Source: Escherichia phage mobillu
Reading direction: 5' to 3' (one strand)
Length of the DNA: 64,000 bases
Sequence record: MN850622.1
A program made the position numbers and the translations under genes. Shown here piece after piece: positions 28,680 through 61,433 of the stretch. The notes beneath the pieces were generated by a model. The model was not told the origin of the DNA and did no database searches. It saw only the letters and a list, made by a program, of their open reading frames with translations. Position 1 is the first letter of the stretch; each line of letters starts with the position of its first letter.

Positions 28680-29642
28680 ATGATTACTATCAATTCCAAA
28701 GAACACATTCTAGAACAGAAATATCGTCCTTCTTCCATTGACGAATGTATTCTGCCTGCGTATGACCATGAAACATTCAAGTCTTTAGTATCTAAAGGAA
28801 AACTTCCTCATATTATTTTACACTCTCCATCTCCTGGTACCGGTAAAACAACCGTAGCAAAAGCATTATGTAATGATATCAATGCCGAAATGATGTTCGT
28901 CAACGGTTCTGATTGTAAGATTGATTTTGTGCGTGGTCCATTAACTGCATTCGCTCGTTCAGTCTCAATGGAAGGCAAGCCTAAAGTTATTGTTATTGAT
29001 GAATTTGACCGTAGTGGCCTCGCTGAATCACAACGTCACCTTCGTACATTCATGGAAGAATTCTCTAGTAACTGTTCTATTATTATTACTGCCAACAACA
29101 TCGATGGAATTATCGAACCGTTACGTAGTCGTTGTCGAGTTATCGAATTCGGACGTCCAACCGAAGAAGATAAAATCTCAATGATGAAGAAAATGATTCA
29201 TCGCATGGTTGAAATCTGTAAGAACGAAAATATCGAAATCGCTGATATGAAAGTTGTTGCAGCTCTGGTTAAAAAGAACTTCCCGGACTTTCGACGTACA
29301 ATTGGTCAATTAGACCAGTACTCATCTAAAGGTGTTCTTGATGCAGGTATTTTGTCGATTGTAACCAATGATCGTGGCACGGTAGATGATGTCATAGAAG
29401 CAATGAAAAATAAAGATATCAAACAGCTTCGTGCGTTAGCTCCAAAATATGCCGCTGATTATTCATGGTTCATCGATAAATTAGTTTCTGAGTGTTATGA
29501 CAAAGTTGCACCAGGTAAAAGTATTATTTCGCTTTATGAAATTGCAGGCGAAAATAATAAGTTTCATGGATTAGCAAGTAATATTGAATTACATGTTATG
29601 TATATGCTTCTTCAACTGACCTGCGAACTGACTTGGAAATAA
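28680..29642 (+). CDS. 44: clamp loader large subunit gp44 (AAA+)
   Basis: 320 aa; Walker [11 protein letters not shown], Walker [12 protein letters not shown] motif LRSRC. Confidence 0.9.
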
Positions 29643-33371: not shown

Positions 33372-33411
33372 TATAATGCCAAGGACGGCCAACTAATTAA
33401 ATGAGAGAAAT

Positions 33412-34047
33412 ATGAAAACTACACCAATCACTATCGCTATTGACGCAATCGTAAAACAAGCTTCATCTCTTGCCACTATGGCTAAAGTAATTAGTCAAAA
33501 CCCTGCTCGGTATAATGCTATTCTTGAAACTCTTCGTCGCCCTGGACTGAGTAATTATGAAAGTCGTGTAATTATTACAGGTGTTGGTAAGAACGCTAAT
33601 ATCGCAACTAAAGCTTCCGAGACTTTTGCTTCACTAGGTATTCCTAGCATGTATTTGAACACTGGGCATTATTCTCATGGTGACGCAGGATTTATTGCAC
33701 CTAATGATGTATTAGTTCACATCAGCCGTTCTGGTAAGACTGAAGAAATGATAGGTGTTGCTAAACATCTTCGTATGATTCGTCCTCAGGTTAAACAGAT
33801 TCTGTTACATTGTAACCCTGACATTCCACAAGAATACGAAGCCCTTTTTGATTACTCTTTCTGTACAGGCATCGCGGTAGAGGTTGATGAGAATTCTCTG
33901 GCTCCGACCATGTCCACTACATTGTTGTTAGCGCTTATCGATACGTTTGCTATCAACCTTTCGTCTGAACGTGGATTTACCTCTAATGATTTCCTTAAGT
34001 TCCATCCAGGCGGTGCACTAGGTGCCATGTTACGAGGCGAACAATGA
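33412..34047 (+). CDS. SIS-domain sugar-phosphate isomerase (GmhA/KdsD-like)
   Basis: 211 aa; SIS signature VIITGVGKNANIA...HISRSGKTEE; single-domain size similar to phosphoheptose isomerase. Confidence 0.75.
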   Translation: MKTTPITIAIDAIVKQASSLATMAKVISQNPARYNAILETLRRPGLSNYESRVIITGVGKNANIATKASETFASLGIPSMYLNTGHYSHGDAGFIAPNDVLVHISRSGKTEEMIGVAKHLRMIRPQVKQILLHCNPDIPQEYEALFDYSFCTGIAVEVDENSLAPTMSTTLLLALIDTFAINLSSERGFTSNDFLKFHPGGALGAMLRGEQ

Positions 34048-34187
34048 AAGCAATAACAATAGGACTTTTACTATTGATGCTTGTCATGACTATCTACTGG
34101 AGCTTAACGGCTCCGGTAATGATTCCAACACTTGTAATTGGATGGATTATGATTGGTCTACAGGCAAAGTATGAATGCTTTAACTAG
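34044..34187 (+). CDS. hypothetical small membrane protein (47 aa)
   Basis: ATGA coupling with SIS gene stop; two hydrophobic segments; below ORF-track cutoff. Confidence 0.4.
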   Translation: MKAITIGLLLLMLVMTIYWSLTAPVMIPTLVIGWIMIGLQAKYECFN

Positions 34188-34228
34188 AATAGTGTACAAT
34201 ACTCCTACTTACCAATGAGGACTTCAAC

Positions 34229-35914
34229 ATGAAAAAAGCTGTTATTCTTGGTGCTGGATTGGCAACTCGTTTGTATCCAATAACGCATCATATTCCTAAG
34301 GTGCTTGTTAACTATAAACAAGACACTATTCTGAGCAATTTGTATACAATTTATTCTGACCTTGGCGCAGATGAAATTATTGTAGTAGTTCATTCAAAAT
34401 TTGCTGAAACTGTTCGAGCTTATTGTGAGCAAGAAGGGTTCAATGTGACTATTCGTACAGTTGATGAAGCGTATGGTTCTGCTTATGCTCTTGCTAAATT
34501 ACACAAAGATTTAGACGGCCATAATGTAATTGTTAACTGGTGTGATATTATTCCCGATTTTGGTTCATGGTCTTGGAATGTTAACGCAATCTATGTTAAG
34601 GGTGACGAATGTCGATATAATTTCGACGGTGAAAATATCACTAACGTAGGTTCAACAGGTGGTAATGTTGTAGGAATTTATCAGTTCAAAGACTGGGAAT
34701 TCTATATGGGTTCTACTGATGAGGAAATTCATGAATACTGCAAAGGACGTGATTTCGTAGAATTCCTTTACGGCAGCGCATTCAATAAATCAGAGCTTAT
34801 GAATATAATTGATTTAGGTGATATGCCTAAACTTGAAAAGGCTCATGAAGTTCGTGAACTTAATCGTAGTTTTAATGCAGTTGAAATTGGTGAAGAAACT
34901 GTAACTAAATTCGCATTAACCGAACAGGGACGAGCTCTTCAGAAAGATGAGATTTCGTGGTATTTGAAAGTGAAATCAGATTCAGTTCCTCAGTTAGTTT
35001 CTGTTAATGAAAATAACTTTGAAATGGAACGCATTAAAGGTAAGCCGGCATTTGAATATATTAAATCAAAATCAAGTCTTGCTCGTCCACAAATTATTGA
35101 TGCAATTTTAGATGCACTGAAATTCAGCACAGACACTTATTTTGTAAGTCCTGAAACTGTTCGTCGTGATTTCACTAAAGAATTCTATACGAAAGTTATT
35201 GATCGTTGTGAAAGCATTCAACCATTGATTGATTCATTTGGTAAAATCACACATGTGAACTACACTAAGATTGGACGTCTGAAGCCAATGCTGAAACAAG
35301 CTTTAGAACACCTTATTCGTTATCATAACCGTTCTCAGGGACAGTACTCTGTTATTCATGGTGACCCGAACTTCAGTAATACTATGATTACTGATAACGG
35401 CGAAGTCAAGTTTATCGACCCTCGTGGATATTTTGGCGAAACCAAGATTTACGGGCCAAAATTGTATGATGAAGCTAAAGTGCTTTATGCTGTTTCAGGT
35501 TATGATGAATTCAATGCTAATCCGACCTGGGGACAGTTTACTATTGATGAAACAACTTGTAATGTGACTATTAACATCAATCCATTAGTTTACAAATATG
35601 GAAAGATGAGTTCGTTTAACGAGTATCATCATTTGGCTGTAGCAATTATCTGGATTGCATTAGGTGGTTATTTCAAGAATAATCCACTTAAAGCGGTAGC
35701 CGCATATTATAAAGGTATGGAACTTCTGACTAAGCAATTACGTAACATGGGCCGTGTACTTCAAGACGGCTCTATTAGTTATGACGTAGCAGAACCTGTA
35801 ACGGCTACTCTGATTACAAAAAATCCTGGTAAATGGGTACTAACTGATAAAGAAACTGGTGTTTCCTATCGTCCAATCGGTGGCGATATCACTCATCAAT
35901 GGGAACGAATCTAA
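34229..35914 (+). CDS. bifunctional sugar-1-phosphate nucleotidyltransferase / sugar kinase (APH-choline kinase fold)
   Basis: 561 aa; N-terminal NTP-transferase signature AVILGAGLATRLYPIT..PK; C-terminal kinase motifs VIHGDPNFSNTMI and FIDPRGYFGE. Confidence 0.75.
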   Translation: MKKAVILGAGLATRLYPITHHIPKVLVNYKQDTILSNLYTIYSDLGADEIIVVVHSKFAETVRAYCEQEGFNVTIRTVDEAYGSAYALAKLHKDLDGHNVIVNWCDIIPDFGSWSWNVNAIYVKGDECRYNFDGENITNVGSTGGNVVGIYQFKDWEFYMGSTDEEIHEYCKGRDFVEFLYGSAFNKSELMNIIDLGDMPKLEKAHEVRELNRSFNAVEIGEETVTKFALTEQGRALQKDEISWYLKVKSDSVPQLVSVNENNFEMERIKGKPAFEYIKSKSSLARPQIIDAILDALKFSTDTYFVSPETVRRDFTKEFYTKVIDRCESIQPLIDSFGKITHVNYTKIGRLKPMLKQALEHLIRYHNRSQGQYSVIHGDPNFSNTMITDNGEVKFIDPRGYFGETKIYGPKLYDEAKVLYAVSGYDEFNANPTWGQFTIDETTCNVTININPLVYKYGKMSSFNEYHHLAVAIIWIALGGYFKNNPLKAVAAYYKGMELLTKQLRNMGRVLQDGSISYDVAEPVTATLITKNPGKWVLTDKETGVSYRPIGGDITHQWERI

Positions 35915-36300
35915 TGCACCGTGTAGAAAACATGCTTAATCTTTGTTTTGATGTCGATGATTGTATAACAGAGTGGAATAACAATCGTGATTACGTGAAC
36001 TTCAAACCAGACGTCGAAATGGTGTCTGCCATTAATGCCCTGTATGATGCAGGGCATACCATAACGCTTTACACTGCTCGCGGTATGAAGTCAGTAGGTC
36101 CTGGTCGTATAGCAATTGACATTCTCCCAAGTCTGATTCAGAACTTGGCAAACATTGGCTTGAAGTACCATAATTTGCTAACACATAAACCAGTATATGA
36201 TTGGATTATCGACGACAAAGCTATGCGTCCTGACGAATTCAAAGCTCTTATGAATAAAGGCGAATTCGAAACATTTAAATCATATAAACCAAATCTATAA
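35914..36300 (+). CDS. HAD-superfamily phosphatase
   Basis: 128 aa from ATG 35914 (TAATG coupling); HAD motif I FDVDDCIT near N-terminus; C-terminal WIIDDKA. Confidence 0.65.
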   Translation: MHRVENMLNLCFDVDDCITEWNNNRDYVNFKPDVEMVSAINALYDAGHTITLYTARGMKSVGPGRIAIDILPSLIQNLANIGLKYHNLLTHKPVYDWIIDDKAMRPDEFKALMNKGEFETFKSYKPNL

Positions 36301-36357
36301 TAATTTAAGTAAGACCTGCAAAAACCATCGCATCAATTAACGTGAGATGCAAAAAAA

Positions 36358-37518
36358 ATGAATACTTTTAAAATCGGAACGAATTTTGATTTAGCTCTTC
36401 TTGATAAAATCGTAGAGCTCAATAAAACTTATCCTAATAGCTTGATAAACGAAGTATACGGCTCTACAAGAGAAATGGCTTTTGTAGCAGCCAGACCTGA
36501 TTTTAGGCTTCCTGACGTTGACAAAAAGATGTTAGAAGATTACGTTAAACGTTGTAACGAATTAGGTATTTGCTTTAACTATACACTCAACACGATAAAT
36601 CCTGGTTCAAAAAGAGAACTAGTTGAGTGGAAGAAGAAAGCTATTCAGGATTATGTTCAGTATCTTTGGTCAATAGGCGTATGGCGTATTACTATCGCTA
36701 ACCCTGTTGTTATGGAAATTGTTCGTGAAGTCAATAAAGACATTGAGATTGAAGTTTCAACAATTCTACATGTCGATGCTGTAACTCAAATCAAATACTT
36801 GCATGACCAGTATAATATCAAAAAGGTCTGCTGTGGAATTCATAAGAACCGTTCAGTTTCTTTCCTGAAGCGTGCAGCAGAGTTTTGCAATAAGAACAAT
36901 ATAATATTTGAAGTTCTTGTAAATGAGTTCTGTTCTAATGCTGGTAAAGGGTATACAACACATTGTAGCTATCGTGACTCTTGCTATATTTTCCATAGTA
37001 CTGATGTTACAGCTGATGATGCTAAATCCTTAAACGGATATCCTATGCAGCACTGTATTAAAGCTCGTGATACAGACCCATTTAACTGGTTGAGAACTCG
37101 TTTTGTTCGTCCTCAAGATTTGAAACTTTATAATGATATTGGTATCACTCAATTCAAAGTTTCAGGACGTACAGGTAGCACAGACTACATTTTGAAAGTT
37201 CTTGAAGCATACGCTTCTGAAAAGTTTGAAGGTAATTTGTTAGAACTGTGGAAGCCTTTAGAGACTATTTTCACTCTTGAAAATGAGACCGAGTTTTCAC
37301 ATACGGTAAATATTGAAACCTCTTTGTTAGATGGCTTTTTAGAAAAAAGGTGGTTCAGACATCCAGATTTCGATTGTGCTAATGAAATCTGCGGGACGAC
37401 GTGTACATATTGTGAAAGATATTATAAACGTCAGTTATCTAAAAATGGGTTATCAGAAAATTCTATATCTATTATTGATATAACTAACTCTGATGACGCT
37501 TTGAGGTACCCAGAATGA
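36358..37518 (+). CDS. U32-family-like Cys-rich protein (tentative)
   Basis: 386 aa; layout YTLNTIN ... EVSTILHV ... IFEVLVNEFCSNAGKGYTTHCSY resembles U32 (PrtC/RlhA/UbiU) family; C-terminal cluster C-x4-C-x4-C-x2-C. Confidence 0.55.
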   Translation: MNTFKIGTNFDLALLDKIVELNKTYPNSLINEVYGSTREMAFVAARPDFRLPDVDKKMLEDYVKRCNELGICFNYTLNTINPGSKRELVEWKKKAIQDYVQYLWSIGVWRITIANPVVMEIVREVNKDIEIEVSTILHVDAVTQIKYLHDQYNIKKVCCGIHKNRSVSFLKRAAEFCNKNNIIFEVLVNEFCSNAGKGYTTHCSYRDSCYIFHSTDVTADDAKSLNGYPMQHCIKARDTDPFNWLRTRFVRPQDLKLYNDIGITQFKVSGRTGSTDYILKVLEAYASEKFEGNLLELWKPLETIFTLENETEFSHTVNIETSLLDGFLEKRWFRHPDFDCANEICGTTCTYCERYYKRQLSKNGLSENSISIIDITNSDDALRYPE

Positions 37519-37754
37519 TTTCTAGAAAAACTTTTAACCACCAACTTAATGAAGAGATTTTGACTATGAAAATTAACAGCAACGAACAAATTCTTAAAAA
37601 GGCCCTTATGGGCCTGTTTGAAACTAAAGCGGCTAAAGTGATTAAAGGACCTGTTCAATTGGAATACTACGCTGATGCATTTCTTCATAGTGTTCTTGGA
37701 AGTATCGATGCTGAAGCTTTACGTTATATCAACATTGTCAAGAAATTCAAATAA
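37515..37754 (+). CDS. hypothetical protein
   Basis: ORF 79 aa, ATGA overlap. Confidence 0.5.
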   Translation: MISRKTFNHQLNEEILTMKINSNEQILKKALMGLFETKAAKVIKGPVQLEYYADAFLHSVLGSIDAEALRYINIVKKFK

Positions 37755-37796: not shown

Positions 37797-38513
37797 ATGG
37801 GAAAACATAACACAATGAAATATATCAAAGCCGCAGATTTTCAAACCGCATTTAAAGCAGTCAATCGTGAAATTTTAGAAAACCCGGAATTCGTAACTGA
37901 TTCTCGTATTGGACGTTGTAATGAAATTGGGTCTATGACAGTAGTTGTTGACACTCCATCATCATTCAAAATGACCGACCCACGTATTAACCGCATCTCT
38001 TATGAATACGCCGAAGATTTCTGGAAGTTTATGATTTCTGGTGGTACCAACGCAGAAGAAGCGTTTAAGGCATATCCTAATGTCGCTAAATTTATTTCTA
38101 AACCAAAATCAGATGTTTTGCCGGCGAACTTCAACACTTTCTACGGTCCTCGCATTGCGGCCCAATTACCAGCTCTTCTAAAAGAACTTAAAGAGAAGCC
38201 TAACTCCCGAAGAGTTGTGTTCCAAATTCTAGAAAGTTCTGATCAGGCTTTGCTTGATTCAGACGAAACGCTTGAATATCCATGTACTGACTCAGTGACT
38301 TATTATATTCGTGATGGTAAGCTTTATACCCACTGTCATATGCGTTCTCAGAACTGTGCTGTTGTTATGCAGTTGGATTTTTATCTCCAAGGAAAATTAC
38401 TTCATTATATCGCTAACGAATGTGGTGTAGAAGTTGGTGATTATACTCATACCATGGTAAGTGCCCATGTGTTTGAACGTGATTTTGATTATGTTAAAGG
38501 ATTCCTTGACTAA
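37797..38513 (+). CDS. 42: dCMP hydroxymethylase gp42 (thymidylate synthase family)
   Basis: 238 aa; PCTDSVTYYIRD ... HMRSQN segments correspond to T4 gp42 active-site region as I recall it. Confidence 0.8.
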   Translation: MGKHNTMKYIKAADFQTAFKAVNREILENPEFVTDSRIGRCNEIGSMTVVVDTPSSFKMTDPRINRISYEYAEDFWKFMISGGTNAEEAFKAYPNVAKFISKPKSDVLPANFNTFYGPRIAAQLPALLKELKEKPNSRRVVFQILESSDQALLDSDETLEYPCTDSVTYYIRDGKLYTHCHMRSQNCAVVMQLDFYLQGKLLHYIANECGVEVGDYTHTMVSAHVFERDFDYVKGFLD

Positions 38514-39412
38514 TGGCTATTTTCCGCGTACCAATCTTGAGTATGCGGTCTTATGAAACTGGACAGTATGCTATCCTTAAGGATGGCAACTTCCAACTTC
38601 ATTTGCACCGTGCTAATCCAGGTGATGTGATTACATATCCACGTAATGCATCTGATATTAAAGAATGCGAACGTCTTTTCCCAGAATTTAAGTTTGTTCC
38701 ATTATGGTATAAAGATAACGCGTATAACACTCGTAAATATTTCTGGTCTGAAAATGAATTTGTGGTTGATTCATTAATTGCTTATTATGATTGTGATTTT
38801 CTAATCACAGATATCACCGGATATGACGGTGCTTTTGATGTAGAATTCAATTTCAATATCACTGCAGACCCTAATAAACCACGTTTTTATATTGACGAAT
38901 TCTTAAAAACCGACATGTTGTCGGTTAATCGTTCACTTCAAACTACTGTGTTGAACGAACGTCAAAAAGAAGTGCTGGTTAACGCAGGTGCAGATGGTAA
39001 TAAGATTATCGTAACGCAGAAAGTTATACGTCCTTCCATCATGCAGCGTCTTGTAGGTGATTTGGCTCCTATTCATCTAGATGGTATTTTTCATCCATTT
39101 CGAATTAGCGACCCGTGCTATCGTTTTGAACAAGTGGTTGAATGTGCAATTCAATTAGGCCAACCGCTTTATATAACCGATCCAAATAATAGCTTCGACA
39201 GAAATAAGTATCCTGAAGAAGCGCTGATTCGAATTTTTAAACCAACTAAAACTGAGTACTATCAAATTCTTAAAGGACGTCCGAAAATTCAATATTTCGA
39301 AAATCCTGAAGAAGTATTCCATCCAGGTCTTGGTGAGTTCATCTACTTTAATGCTTTAATTTCTTCGCCGTATAATATACCTAAATATGAAGATGTCGTA
39401 ATCGAGGAATAA
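38513..39412 (+). CDS. hypothetical protein occupying the beta-glucosyltransferase locus
   Basis: 299 aa; no similarity to T4 beta-gt recognised; TAATG coupling with gene 42. Confidence 0.6.
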   Translation: MAIFRVPILSMRSYETGQYAILKDGNFQLHLHRANPGDVITYPRNASDIKECERLFPEFKFVPLWYKDNAYNTRKYFWSENEFVVDSLIAYYDCDFLITDITGYDGAFDVEFNFNITADPNKPRFYIDEFLKTDMLSVNRSLQTTVLNERQKEVLVNAGADGNKIIVTQKVIRPSIMQRLVGDLAPIHLDGIFHPFRISDPCYRFEQVVECAIQLGQPLYITDPNNSFDRNKYPEEALIRIFKPTKTEYYQILKGRPKIQYFENPEEVFHPGLGEFIYFNALISSPYNIPKYEDVVIEE

Positions 39413-39413
39413 A

Positions 39414-39962
39414 ATGGCTAAAATTATTTTAGTAGATGGCCCAGATAATGCTGGTAAAACAACTTTCATTAATGACATAATGGAAATTAGTGAAAGATAT
39501 GTAAAGATTGATTTCCCTAAACGAACAGTTGATGGGCGTTTCGATGTTAAGTCTCGAAATGAAGTTGGCTGCTTCGAAACGATGTTGAATTATTTAGACC
39601 CTACTAAGATTTATCTGTTAGACCGTGGATATATTAGTAACTGGGTTTATGGACGTATTCGACAAGATGCGGACTCGGTTCTTGACGTTTATGAACAGGA
39701 TTATGTTCGTCTTTGCCAAAACCATGATGTGTTCACAATTATTTTAACACGTAACGAAATGACTGAAAGTTTTGAAGACGACCTTATTACTTTGTCTTCA
39801 TTCGGTTTTAATACAGTCATTTCACATTTTGAAGAGTTTGCAATTCATAACAAAATCCAAACGTATCAATTACTTAATCATGATGGTGCTAACAAAGTTA
39901 TAGGATTTAATGCAAGCGAACGTAATTATTTGATTACAGAAATTATCAAATGGGCTCGTTAA
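39414..39962 (+). CDS. P-loop nucleoside/nucleotide kinase-like protein
   Basis: 182 aa; Walker A VDGPDNAGKTT; LDRGYIS resembling dNK/TMK family. Confidence 0.65.
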   Translation: MAKIILVDGPDNAGKTTFINDIMEISERYVKIDFPKRTVDGRFDVKSRNEVGCFETMLNYLDPTKIYLLDRGYISNWVYGRIRQDADSVLDVYEQDYVRLCQNHDVFTIILTRNEMTESFEDDLITLSSFGFNTVISHFEEFAIHNKIQTYQLLNHDGANKVIGFNASERNYLITEIIKWAR

Positions 39963-60332: not shown

Positions 60333-61433
60333 ATGAAAGTTATGTTTATCCCATCTCGCGCAGTCCCATTTAACCCAGAACGTGTACAAGGTGGTCTTGA
60401 AGCAGTACATTTAAATGTGTTGAAATATCTTGTGTCCATCGGTGCTGATATTGATTATATCGGCTTTGATAATGACACGTTTGGTGACTGGAAGGTTAAT
60501 CATCATCCTGTTGGTCATCTGACTAAATTCAGTCTAGGTATGAGTTATACTATGGCTCGTAAGATTGTTGAACTAGCCGGCATTAATGAGTACGATTTCG
60601 TTGTTACAATGGAACCGACCAAACTAACCGTTCAGGCAATTAAAGACGCAGGTCTCTCTAAAGTTCATAAGAATTTTATGGCAACACCATTTGAACCAGT
60701 ATCTCGTGGCATTGTTCAAATTTGGGACCAGACTATTCAAATTCATAAGAACGGTGGTAAGAGTTATGCTCCTACTAAAGCCTTCCGTGAATTTGAACGC
60801 AAATATTGTTATATGACTTCAGGTCTGACTGACAAAATTGATTATGATTATTGGCGAGCAAATCCGTTGTTTGAAGCCGAAGATTATCCGGTTATTTGTT
60901 TGAATGATAAACCTGAAGTTCTTCCGGCGACTGATCTGATTATTAGTGCACAACGTTATGACACTAAAATGCGTCGTACTGATGTTGCTCTTGAAGCGAT
61001 TAAAGCACTAGGCGAAAATGGTGCAGGATACTGTCCTAGTAAATGGGCACCACCAGCTAAATATCCTGTTATTATTGATGCTCCACACAGTGAAATCATG
61101 GAACGTCTTAAAATGGCTAAAGCACTTATTAATACGTGTCCTGACACAGGTACGGTAGAGAATAGTTCTATTGAAGCCATCTCTAAAGGTGTCCCTGTAA
61201 TCCAGTTAGTTTTTAAGGATTATCCTCATGCGACATTCGAATACGACCCGGATACTGTGCGTGTAGAAATTGATTCCTCTACTCCTAAGAAAGAAGTAGT
61301 TGCGCTTTACACAAAAGCTGTATTAGAATTCACTGACACATACGAAGCTCGAGTTAAACGTGCTGAAGCAGTATGGAAGAAATATAATCGAGATGCAGTT
61401 GTTGCGATGTGGGATAAAATCTTCACAGCGTAA
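60333..61433 (+). CDS. GT-B fold glycosyltransferase (GT4-like); candidate DNA (hmC) sugar transferase
   Basis: 366 aa; N-terminal MKVMFIPSRA..GGLEAVHLNVLKYL and C-terminal ENSSIEAISKGVPVI resemble GT4 signature regions. Confidence 0.65.
   Translation: MKVMFIPSRAVPFNPERVQGGLEAVHLNVLKYLVSIGADIDYIGFDNDTFGDWKVNHHPVGHLTKFSLGMSYTMARKIVELAGINEYDFVVTMEPTKLTVQAIKDAGLSKVHKNFMATPFEPVSRGIVQIWDQTIQIHKNGGKSYAPTKAFREFERKYCYMTSGLTDKIDYDYWRANPLFEAEDYPVICLNDKPEVLPATDLIISAQRYDTKMRRTDVALEAIKALGENGAGYCPSKWAPPAKYPVIIDAPHSEIMERLKMAKALINTCPDTGTVENSSIEAISKGVPVIQLVFKDYPHATFEYDPDTVRVEIDSSTPKKEVVALYTKAVLEFTDTYEARVKRAEAVWKKYNRDAVVAMWDKIFTA

What the first reader, a model, noticed from the sequence alone, without database searches (positions are those of the whole stretch)
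34229..35914. Fusion of a sugar-1-phosphate nucleotidyltransferase with an APH/choline-kinase-fold kinase
The N-terminal 250 aa carry the GlmU/RmlA-type motif AVILGAGLATRL..PK. The C-terminal half carries VIHGDPNFSNTMI and FIDPRGYFGE, typical of the aminoglycoside-phosphotransferase/choline-kinase/anomeric sugar kinase fold. One polypeptide could therefore phosphorylate C1 of a sugar and then activate it as an NDP-sugar. The domain order and kinase fold differ from HldE.
Basis: partly seen in the sequence, partly recalled or inferred. Interest (0 to 1): 0.75.

Follow-up and report, generated by a model that had tools for sequence, protein, structure and literature searches.

The report
Phage arabinose kinase–nucleotidyltransferase fusion, already known
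This gene of an RB69-like E. coli phage really does fuse a sugar-phosphate nucleotidyltransferase to a choline-kinase-fold sugar kinase, but it is the already described enzyme that makes UDP-arabinose for decorating the phage's DNA cytosines, so the finding is correct and not new.

Summary
Window 34229-35914 (+) is a 561-aa ORF. Residues 1-207 are a sugar-1-phosphate nucleotidyltransferase domain and residues 210-507 are an APH/choline-kinase-fold kinase. All catalytic residues are invariant across 35 homologues down to 28% identity.

It is not new. The window is a Mosigvirus and the protein is 99% identical to RB69 ORF53_52c. Thomas et al. 2018 showed that to be one 561-aa gene and proposed it for UDP-arabinose synthesis. 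Lee et al. (NAR 2026) assign it the same two domains. They equate it with AfhE of phage HY126, reported by He et al. 2026 as a D-arabinose-5-phosphate kinase plus UDP-D-arabinose pyrophosphorylase.

One nuance: the adjacent HAD phosphatase acts between the two steps, as in the ADP-heptose pathway. The product feeds arabinosyltransferases that modify 5-hydroxycytosine in phage DNA. The database name "bifunctional protein GlmU" is wrong.

Side leads: the neighbouring U32-family gene may be an oxygen-independent cytosine 5-hydroxylase. A probable giant virus encodes all four pathway activities in one protein.

The parts
34229..35914 (+). 561-aa gene encoding the fused nucleotidyltransferase-kinase (orthologue of RB69 ORF53_52c, AfhE type)
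   Evidence: ORF. It is 98.2% identical in nucleotides and 99% in protein to RB69 ORF053c+052c. The exact protein is QHR72763.1 of Escherichia phage mobillu.
34229..34849 (+). N-terminal sugar-1-phosphate nucleotidyltransferase domain (residues 1-207)
   Evidence: Pfam NTP_transferase 8.8e-10. PDB sequence hit to LicC 1jyk at 2e-5. Foldseek hits to MurU, LicC, RmlA and HddC at probability 1.00. Invariant residues G10, R14, K24, D106, D195 and D198.
34250..34300 (+). NTP-binding signature GAGLATRLYPITHHIPK (residues 8-24)
34856..35749 (+). APH/choline-kinase-fold kinase domain (residues 210-507)
35357..35380 (+). Brenner catalytic motif HGDPNFSN (residues 377-384), with catalytic D379 and N384
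   Evidence: H377, G378, D379, S383 and N384 are invariant in 35 sequences. Position.
35414..35428 (+). IDPRG (residues 396-400); D397 is the metal-binding Asp equivalent to the DFG Asp
   Evidence: Invariant in 35 sequences. Position.
35750..35911 (+). C-terminal extension of about 55 aa (residues 508-561), of unknown role, present only in phage-type members
   Evidence: Present in the 20 closest sequences of alignment A1 and absent from the 14 most distant. Lower model confidence, pLDDT 64-87.
33412..34047 (+). SIS-domain arabinose-5-phosphate isomerase (RB69 gp55 orthologue); supplies D-arabinose 5-phosphate from ribulose 5-phosphate
   Evidence: NCBIfam KpsF/GutQ 1e-31 and KdsD 4e-30. 97% identical to RB69 gp55.
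35899..36300 (+). HAD-type phosphatase (RB69 gp51 orthologue, AfhF type). The start is at 35899, or at 35914 where TAATG overlaps the upstream stop codon.
   Evidence: NCBIfam TIGR01689 capsule biosynthesis phosphatase 4e-13, which is below that model's curated cutoff. 99% identical to RB69 gp51. Role taken from PMC13326640.
36358..37518 (+). Peptidase_U32-family protein (RB69 gp50 orthologue); cluster member with no assigned role
   Evidence: Pfam U32 7e-11. See Noticed in passing.
37797..38513 (+). Thymidylate-synthase-like 5-hydroxy-dCMP synthase (RB69 gp48 orthologue); makes the acceptor base
   Evidence: 99% identical to RB69 gp48. Function shown for RB69 gp48 in PMC13326640.
38513..39412 (+). 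Putative DNA arabinosyltransferase 1 (orthologue of RB69 gp46:47)
   Evidence: ORF. Position in the RB69 and Bas46 clusters. Assignment from PMC13326640 Table 1.
39414..39962 (+). Thymidylate-kinase-like nucleotide kinase (RB69 gp45 orthologue)
   Evidence: 99% identical to RB69 gp45.
60333..61433 (+). Second arabinosyltransferase (RB69 ORF003c orthologue); consumer of the NDP-arabinose
   Evidence: 98.6% identical over 366 aa. Proposed as the arabinosyltransferase in PMC6024577 and PMC13326640.

Best explanation
The gene encodes the AfhE-type bifunctional enzyme of the phage pathway that makes UDP-D-arabinofuranose. Shown here: the domain folds, the intact catalytic residues, near-identity to the RB69 protein, and the gene neighbourhood. 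Taken from the literature on close homologues: the chemistry. In that scheme the upstream SIS isomerase converts host ribulose 5-phosphate to D-arabinose 5-phosphate. The C-terminal kinase domain of this protein phosphorylates C1 with ATP, giving arabinose 1,5-bisphosphate. The translationally coupled downstream HAD phosphatase removes the 5-phosphate. The N-terminal nucleotidyltransferase domain then condenses arabinose 1-phosphate with UTP to give UDP-arabinose. Phage glycosyltransferases (38513-39412 and 60333-61433) transfer the arabinose to 5-hydroxycytosine in replicated phage DNA, which protects the DNA from host nucleases. The logic copies the ADP-heptose pathway (GmhA, HldE kinase, GmhB, HldE adenylyltransferase) but uses unrelated folds for both the kinase and the transferase.
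Against: No enzyme assay exists for this exact protein. The primary paper (He et al. 2026, Nat Chem Biol) is not in the library and the HY126 AfhE sequence could not be retrieved. The equivalence to AfhE therefore rests on the statement in PMC13326640, not on my own alignment. Table 1 of that same paper still lists the alternative step order (phosphatase first, kinase acting on free arabinose). Nucleotide specificity (UTP) cannot be read from the sequence. Thanatos TH1_060 gave no NDP-sugar from xylose 1-phosphate with any NTP. That is compatible with specificity for arabinofuranose 1-phosphate but is not positive evidence.
Confidence: 0.85

Rival explanations
1. Same enzyme and same product, but a different order of steps. 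The HAD phosphatase first dephosphorylates arabinose 5-phosphate to free D-arabinose. The kinase domain then acts as a plain anomeric kinase (arabinose to arabinose 1-phosphate), and the nucleotidyltransferase follows directly.
For: Table 1 of PMC13326640 annotates RB69 gp51 as 'dephosphorylates Araf5p to Ara' and the C-terminal domain as 'phosphorylates Ara to Araf1p'. The structurally closest kinases (maltokinase, N-acetylhexosamine 1-kinase, glucosamine kinase) act on unphosphorylated sugars.
Against: The text of the same paper, citing the HY126 biochemistry, gives the bisphosphate route. The phosphatase resembles heptose-1,7-bisphosphate phosphatase GmhB in their fold search. Several family-specific invariant basic residues in the kinase domain (R213, R326, R399, K417) would suit an anionic substrate, but this is inference only.
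Confidence: 0.1
2. A LicCA-like enzyme: choline (or another amino-alcohol) kinase fused to a cytidylyltransferase, making CDP-choline or a similar non-sugar donor.
Against: Conserved linkage and fusion with an arabinose-5-phosphate isomerase and a sugar-phosphate phosphatase. Mosigvirus DNA carries arabose-free? No: Mosigvirus DNA carries arabinose, not phosphocholine. Biochemistry reported for AfhE.
Confidence: 0.02
3. A GlmU homologue, as named in GenBank for phages mobillu, mogra and JK45 ('bifunctional protein GlmU').
For: Weak NCBIfam hits of residues 3-109 to GlmU-type models (best TIGR03992, 51.5 bits against a cutoff of 292). Database names.
Against: GlmU requires a C-terminal left-handed beta-helix acetyltransferase. 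No hexapeptide-repeat domain was found, and the C-terminal half is a kinase fold. All NCBIfam scores are far below their cutoffs.
Confidence: 0.01

Closest known systems
RB69 ORF53_52c (gp52:53) and phage HY126 AfhE: bifunctional D-arabinose-5-phosphate kinase / UDP-D-arabinose pyrophosphorylase
   Same: 99% identical to the RB69 protein. Same length, same two domains, same gene neighbourhood. Same proposed function.
   Different: Nothing of substance; about five amino-acid differences from RB69. Identity to HY126 AfhE itself could not be measured.
ADP-heptose pathway: GmhA (SIS isomerase), HldE (kinase + adenylyltransferase), GmhB (HAD phosphatase)
   Same: Same four-step logic: a SIS isomerase, a C1 kinase acting on a sugar phosphate, a HAD bisphosphate phosphatase, then a nucleotidyltransferase, with the kinase and transferase fused in one chain (own knowledge of the pathway; analogy also drawn in PMC13326640).
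   Different: The HldE kinase is ribokinase (PfkB) fold and N-terminal, and its transferase is cytidylyltransferase fold and C-terminal (own knowledge). Here the kinase is APH/choline-kinase fold and C-terminal, and the transferase is GT-A/RmlA-like and N-terminal. The resemblance is convergent, not homologous.
AmgK + MurU (MurNAc/GlcNAc anomeric kinase and MurNAc-1-phosphate uridylyltransferase)
   Same: The same two folds working in sequence. MurU is among the best structural matches of the N-terminal domain (4y7u, rank 2).
   Different: They are separate proteins, need no intervening phosphatase, act on a hexosamine substrate, and serve cell-wall recycling rather than DNA modification (own knowledge).
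LicC/LicA and the fused LicCA of Treponema
   Different: The substrate is choline, not a pentose phosphate, and there are no isomerase or phosphatase partners (own knowledge).
Bifunctional fucokinase/GDP-fucose pyrophosphorylase (Bacteroides Fkp) and Leishmania arabinokinase/pyrophosphorylase AFKP80
   Same: One chain combines an anomeric kinase with a pyrophosphorylase, and the Leishmania enzyme even acts on D-arabinose (own knowledge).
   Different: Their kinase is GHMP fold and their products are GDP-sugars in pyranose form. No GHMP domain is present here.

Membership tests
AfhE / RB69 ORF53_52c-type arabinose-5-phosphate kinase-UDP-arabinose pyrophosphorylase | N-terminal GT-A-type sugar-1-phosphate nucleotidyltransferase domain with the GxGxxR...K signature and acidic metal ligands | tested here: met
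   Pfam 8.8e-10; Foldseek; invariant G10, R14, K24, D106, D195 and D198
AfhE / RB69 ORF53_52c-type arabinose-5-phosphate kinase-UDP-arabinose pyrophosphorylase | C-terminal APH/choline-kinase-fold domain with an intact Lys, Glu, HxDxxxxN motif and metal-binding Asp | tested here: met
AfhE / RB69 ORF53_52c-type arabinose-5-phosphate kinase-UDP-arabinose pyrophosphorylase | Orthology to the described RB69 protein | tested here: met
   99% protein identity, collinear over 561 aa; same 90% cluster as RB69 ORF053c
AfhE / RB69 ORF53_52c-type arabinose-5-phosphate kinase-UDP-arabinose pyrophosphorylase | Linkage to an arabinose-5-phosphate isomerase, a HAD phosphatase, a TS-like 5-hydroxy-dCMP synthase and DNA glycosyltransferases | tested here: met
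   same order in Bas46, RB69 and Acj61
AfhE / RB69 ORF53_52c-type arabinose-5-phosphate kinase-UDP-arabinose pyrophosphorylase | Sequence homology to HY126 AfhE itself | not testable with these tools
   The HY126 genome and the He et al. 2026 paper are not held. Equivalence is stated in PMC13326640.
AfhE / RB69 ORF53_52c-type arabinose-5-phosphate kinase-UDP-arabinose pyrophosphorylase | Kinase activity on D-arabinose 5-phosphate and uridylyltransferase activity on arabinose 1-phosphate | not testable with these tools
   Requires enzymology
HldE | N-terminal ribokinase (PfkB) kinase and C-terminal cytidylyltransferase-fold adenylyltransferase | tested here: not met
   No PfkB or CTP_transf_like hit; different folds and opposite domain order
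GlmU (name given in several GenBank records) | C-terminal hexapeptide-repeat beta-helix acetyltransferase domain, and a score above the GlmU family cutoff | tested here: not met
   No Hexapep hit. GlmU NCBIfam models score 16-23 bits against cutoffs of 367-718. The C-terminal half is a kinase.
APH / choline kinase superfamily (protein-kinase-like fold) | Bilobal kinase fold with the Brenner motif | tested here: met
   The Pfam APH score is only 14.4 bits against a cutoff of 23.2, so this is a divergent member that Pfam thresholds do not capture.

The most novel reading that the evidence does not exclude
The fusion itself offers nothing new, but its immediate neighbour might. The Peptidase_U32-family protein at 36358-37518 lies between the sugar-activation genes and the oxygen- and flavin-dependent 5-hydroxy-dCMP synthase. 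It may be an oxygen-independent, prephenate-dependent cytosine C5-hydroxylase, like the U32 proteins RlhA (ho5C in rRNA) and TrhP (ho5U in tRNA). That would let these gut phages make the arabinose acceptor base during anaerobic infection. I could not read He et al. 2026 or Mahler et al. 2025, so this may already have been assigned.
Probability: 0.3. Interest if true: 0.6.

Novelty: already known. Interest (0 to 1): 0.2.

Why it matters
The enzyme supplies the activated sugar for arabinosyl-5-hydroxycytosine, a DNA hypermodification that changes how Mosigvirus and related phages fare against restriction enzymes, CRISPR-Cas and type IV systems. It is relevant to phage therapy and phage engineering. 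As a discovery it adds nothing: the gene, its two domains and its role have been published (2018, 2025-2026). The practical value of this check is threefold:
- It confirms that a tool-free reader recognised a genuine bifunctional enzyme.
- It shows that common database names for the gene and its neighbour are wrong ('bifunctional protein GlmU'; 'phosphoheptose isomerase' for the phosphatase).
- It raises two side leads, the U32 neighbour and the single-chain four-domain version in a probable giant virus.

Tried and rejected
- **Primary papers:** I tried to open He et al. 2026 (Nat Chem Biol) and Mahler et al. 2025 (Cell Host Microbe). Neither is held.
- **HY126 sequence:** I tried to find phage HY126 through taxonomy, a literature search and the protein's cluster members. 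Only the taxon name exists in the resources, so there is no direct comparison with AfhE.
- **PDB by sequence:** the search found relatives only for the N-terminal domain and no deposited AfhE-like structure.
- **Pfam on the C-terminal half:** this alone would not have established the kinase, because all hits are below gathering scores. Structure prediction was needed.
- **GlmU, HldE and GHMP-kinase (Fkp-type) membership:** considered and rejected on domain content.
- **U32 motif alignment:** a MAFFT alignment and BLASTP against E. coli TrhP, RlhA, UbiU and UbiV were uninformative at 14-23% identity. A small profile HMM aligned only the flanks of the essential E...C...C motif, so motif conservation remains unproven.
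- **Model coordinates:** these are not exposed to the scripting tool, so I could not measure active-site geometry or judge whether the two active sites face each other.

Full report
**Observation.** Window 34229-35914 (+) is a 561-aa ORF with an ATG start and a GAGGA ribosome-binding site about 8 nt upstream. Pfam finds NTP_transferase at residues 3-99 (E 8.8e-10, above the gathering score). For residues 308-409 it finds only sub-threshold hits to kinase-fold families: APH, fructosamine kinase, EcKL and RIO1. The only correction is that the nucleotidyltransferase domain is about 207 residues rather than 250.

**What the window is.** The upstream ORF is a T4-type DNA polymerase. Megablast of 33400-37600 finds 157 phage records covering at least 80% of the query, most at 95-99% identity. 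They are mainly Escherichia and Shigella phages, and the two records I opened, Bas46 and RB69, are both Mosigvirus. The exact protein sequence is QHR72763.1 of Escherichia phage mobillu. Against the RB69 reference the gene is 98.2% identical in nucleotides and 99% in protein. The single indel is an extra base in the RB69 GenBank record that splits the gene into ORF053c and ORF052c. Thomas et al. 2018 re-sequenced that region and showed the extra base to be an error. They also expressed the region as a single 561-aa product (PMC6024577).

**Folds and catalytic residues.** I aligned the protein with 34 homologues of 73% down to 28% identity.
- Invariant in the N-terminal half: G10, R14, K24, D106, D195 and D198.
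- Invariant in the C-terminal half: K227, E241, H377, G378, D379, S383, N384, I396, D397, P398, R399 and G400.
- The second set is the full catalytic constellation of an APH/choline-kinase-type kinase: ATP lysine, helix-C glutamate, Brenner motif HxDxxxxN and metal-binding aspartate.

**Neighbourhood.** The flanking genes are listed here in window order.
- 33412-34047: a SIS-domain arabinose-5-phosphate isomerase of the KpsF/GutQ/KdsD type (1e-31).
- 35899 or 35914 to 36300: a small HAD-type phosphatase. It overlaps the end of the fusion gene (TAATG at 35912-35916) and is 99% identical to RB69 gp51.
- 36358-37518: a Peptidase_U32-family protein.
- 37797-38513: a thymidylate-synthase-like protein 99% identical to RB69 gp48.
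- 38513-39412: a 299-aa glycosyltransferase candidate.
- 39414-39962: a thymidylate-kinase-like protein.
- 60333-61433: the RB69 ORF003c arabinosyltransferase orthologue.

The same order is annotated in BASEL phage Bas46, with the labels 'putative enzyme involved in UDP-arabinose biosynthesis'. It is also found in RB69 and in Acinetobacter phage Acj61.

**Mechanism.** Lee et al. (NAR 2026, PMC13326640) show that RB69 DNA carries arabinose linked by an ether bond to 5-hydroxycytosine, and that gp48 makes 5-hydroxy-dCMP using O2 and a flavin. They assign gp55 as the isomerase, gp51 as the phosphatase and gp52:53 as a nucleotidyltransferase (N-terminal) plus kinase (C-terminal). [quoted passage not shown] 2026.

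The best explanation is therefore this sequence:
1. Ribulose 5-phosphate is converted to arabinose 5-phosphate by the SIS isomerase.
2. Arabinose 5-phosphate becomes arabinose 1,5-bisphosphate through this protein's C-terminal domain.
3. The bisphosphate becomes arabinose 1-phosphate through the HAD phosphatase.
4. Arabinose 1-phosphate becomes UDP-arabinose through this protein's N-terminal domain.
5. The arabinose is transferred to DNA by the glycosyltransferases.

What I showed directly is the fold, the catalytic residues, the orthology and the synteny. The chemistry is taken from the literature on homologues. Table 1 of the same paper still lists the other order (phosphatase first, kinase on free arabinose), and I keep that as a minor rival.

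**Independent support.** Distant homologues of 890-955 aa carry HAD, SIS, NTP_transferase and the kinase region in one chain, in that order. One of them, P0085, aligns to residues 5-497 of the window protein at 35% identity, E 9e-81, and keeps the HGDxNFSN and DPRGYFG motifs. In Shewanella phage Thanatos, the 54%-identical TH1_060 is essential for propagation. It formed no NDP-sugar from xylose 1-phosphate with any NTP (PMC12838424), which fits a narrow specificity for arabinose phosphates but does not prove it.

**Comparison with known systems.** The two folds are those of AmgK/MurU and of LicA/LicC. LicC is the best PDB sequence match (2e-5). The GenBank name 'bifunctional protein GlmU' is wrong: there is no hexapeptide-repeat acetyltransferase domain, and GlmU models score far below their cutoffs. 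The PHROG and RefSeq label 'phosphoheptose isomerase' for the HAD protein is also wrong.

**Novelty and score.** The gene was recognised as a single ORF and linked to UDP-arabinose synthesis in 2018. Its two-domain nature was published in 2025-2026, and the enzymology of a homologue was reported in 2026. The finding is correct but already known, so I score interest at 0.2.

**Side lead 1: the U32 neighbour.** This gene has no settled role. PMC13326640 calls it 'sugar or heterocycle reductase' and never mentions U32.
- U32-family proteins RlhA and TrhP mediate prephenate-dependent, O2-independent C5-hydroxylation of cytidine and uridine in RNA (PMC6599085).
- The phage U32 gene occurs in 221 phage records. 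The listed ones are all from hosts I know to be facultative anaerobes (enterobacteria and Shewanella), and all are at least 80% identical.
- The NT-kinase in the same phages is only 42-73% identical.
- Acinetobacter phages carry the NT-kinase (57 records). Acj61 has the syntenic cluster with no U32 gene between the HAD and TS-like genes.
- This fits an anaerobic route to 5-hydroxycytosine. However, the essential E...C...C motif could not be aligned with confidence, the correlation is confounded by phylogeny, and the two key papers were not readable.

**Side lead 2: the four-domain fusion P0085.** It lies on a 103-kb contig between genes for Rpb10, a MutS-HNH protein and Rpb2. From my own knowledge, that context is typical of giant viruses of the Mimiviridae group. 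The contig's GC content is 40-55%, and its taxonomy was not tested further.

Noticed in passing
window 36358-37518 (+): Peptidase_U32-family gene (RB69 gp50 orthologue) between the HAD phosphatase and the O2-dependent 5-hydroxy-dCMP synthase. U32 proteins RlhA and TrhP perform O2-independent C5-hydroxylation of C and U in RNA. The gene is at least 80% identical in 221 phage records (listed hosts are enterobacteria and Shewanella). It is absent from the syntenic cluster of Acinetobacter phage Acj61. It may be an anaerobic cytosine 5-hydroxylase. Motif conservation (E185, C192, C203) is unproven.
   Followed up: partly
L003 8001-10781 (protein P0085); also P0088, P0089, P0092, P0091: Proteins of 890-955 aa fuse HAD, SIS, nucleotidyltransferase and APH-like kinase in one chain, which is the whole ribulose-5-phosphate to NDP-arabinose route. 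P0085 sits next to Rpb2, Rpb10 and a MutS-HNH gene, so it is probably in a giant virus or a viral insertion in a eukaryote assembly (GCA_013558355.1). P0091 comes from a eukaryotic transcriptome.
   Followed up: partly
window 35750-35911 (+), residues 508-561 of the fusion: A C-terminal extension of about 55 aa (consensus ...TKxPxKWxLxDxExxxxY...W...) is present in the 20 closest sequences of the alignment and missing from the 14 most distant. It is modelled with lower confidence, as short strands. Its role is unknown; it might dock a partner enzyme.
   Followed up: no
window 34044-34190 (+): A 48-codon ORF between the isomerase and the fusion gene encodes a very hydrophobic peptide (MKAITIGLLLLMLVMTIYWSLTAPVMIPTLVIGWIMIGLQAKYECFN). 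It is annotated as hypothetical in Bas46. The corresponding RB69 ORF054c is noted as similar to the T4 42-imm intercistronic region.
   Followed up: no
window 35899-36300 (+) and 34229-35914 (+): Misleading database names. The HAD-type phosphatase is labelled 'phosphoheptose isomerase' in PHROGs and RefSeq. The fusion is labelled 'bifunctional protein GlmU', 'UDP-glucose dehydrogenase', 'mannose-1-phosphate guanyltransferase' or 'capsular polysaccharide' in various phage records.
   Followed up: yes
window 37515-37754 (+): A 79-aa ORF overlaps the end of the U32 gene by 4 nt (RB69 ORF049c orthologue). It has no function assigned, and like U32 it is missing from the Acj61 cluster.
   Followed up: no
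L002 position 5127 (NC_004928.1 position 29126): By my alignment, the extra base that splits the RB69 gene falls at record position 29126. Thomas et al. 2018 cite C-29116. This is probably a typographical difference or an ambiguity in placing the base.
   Followed up: no
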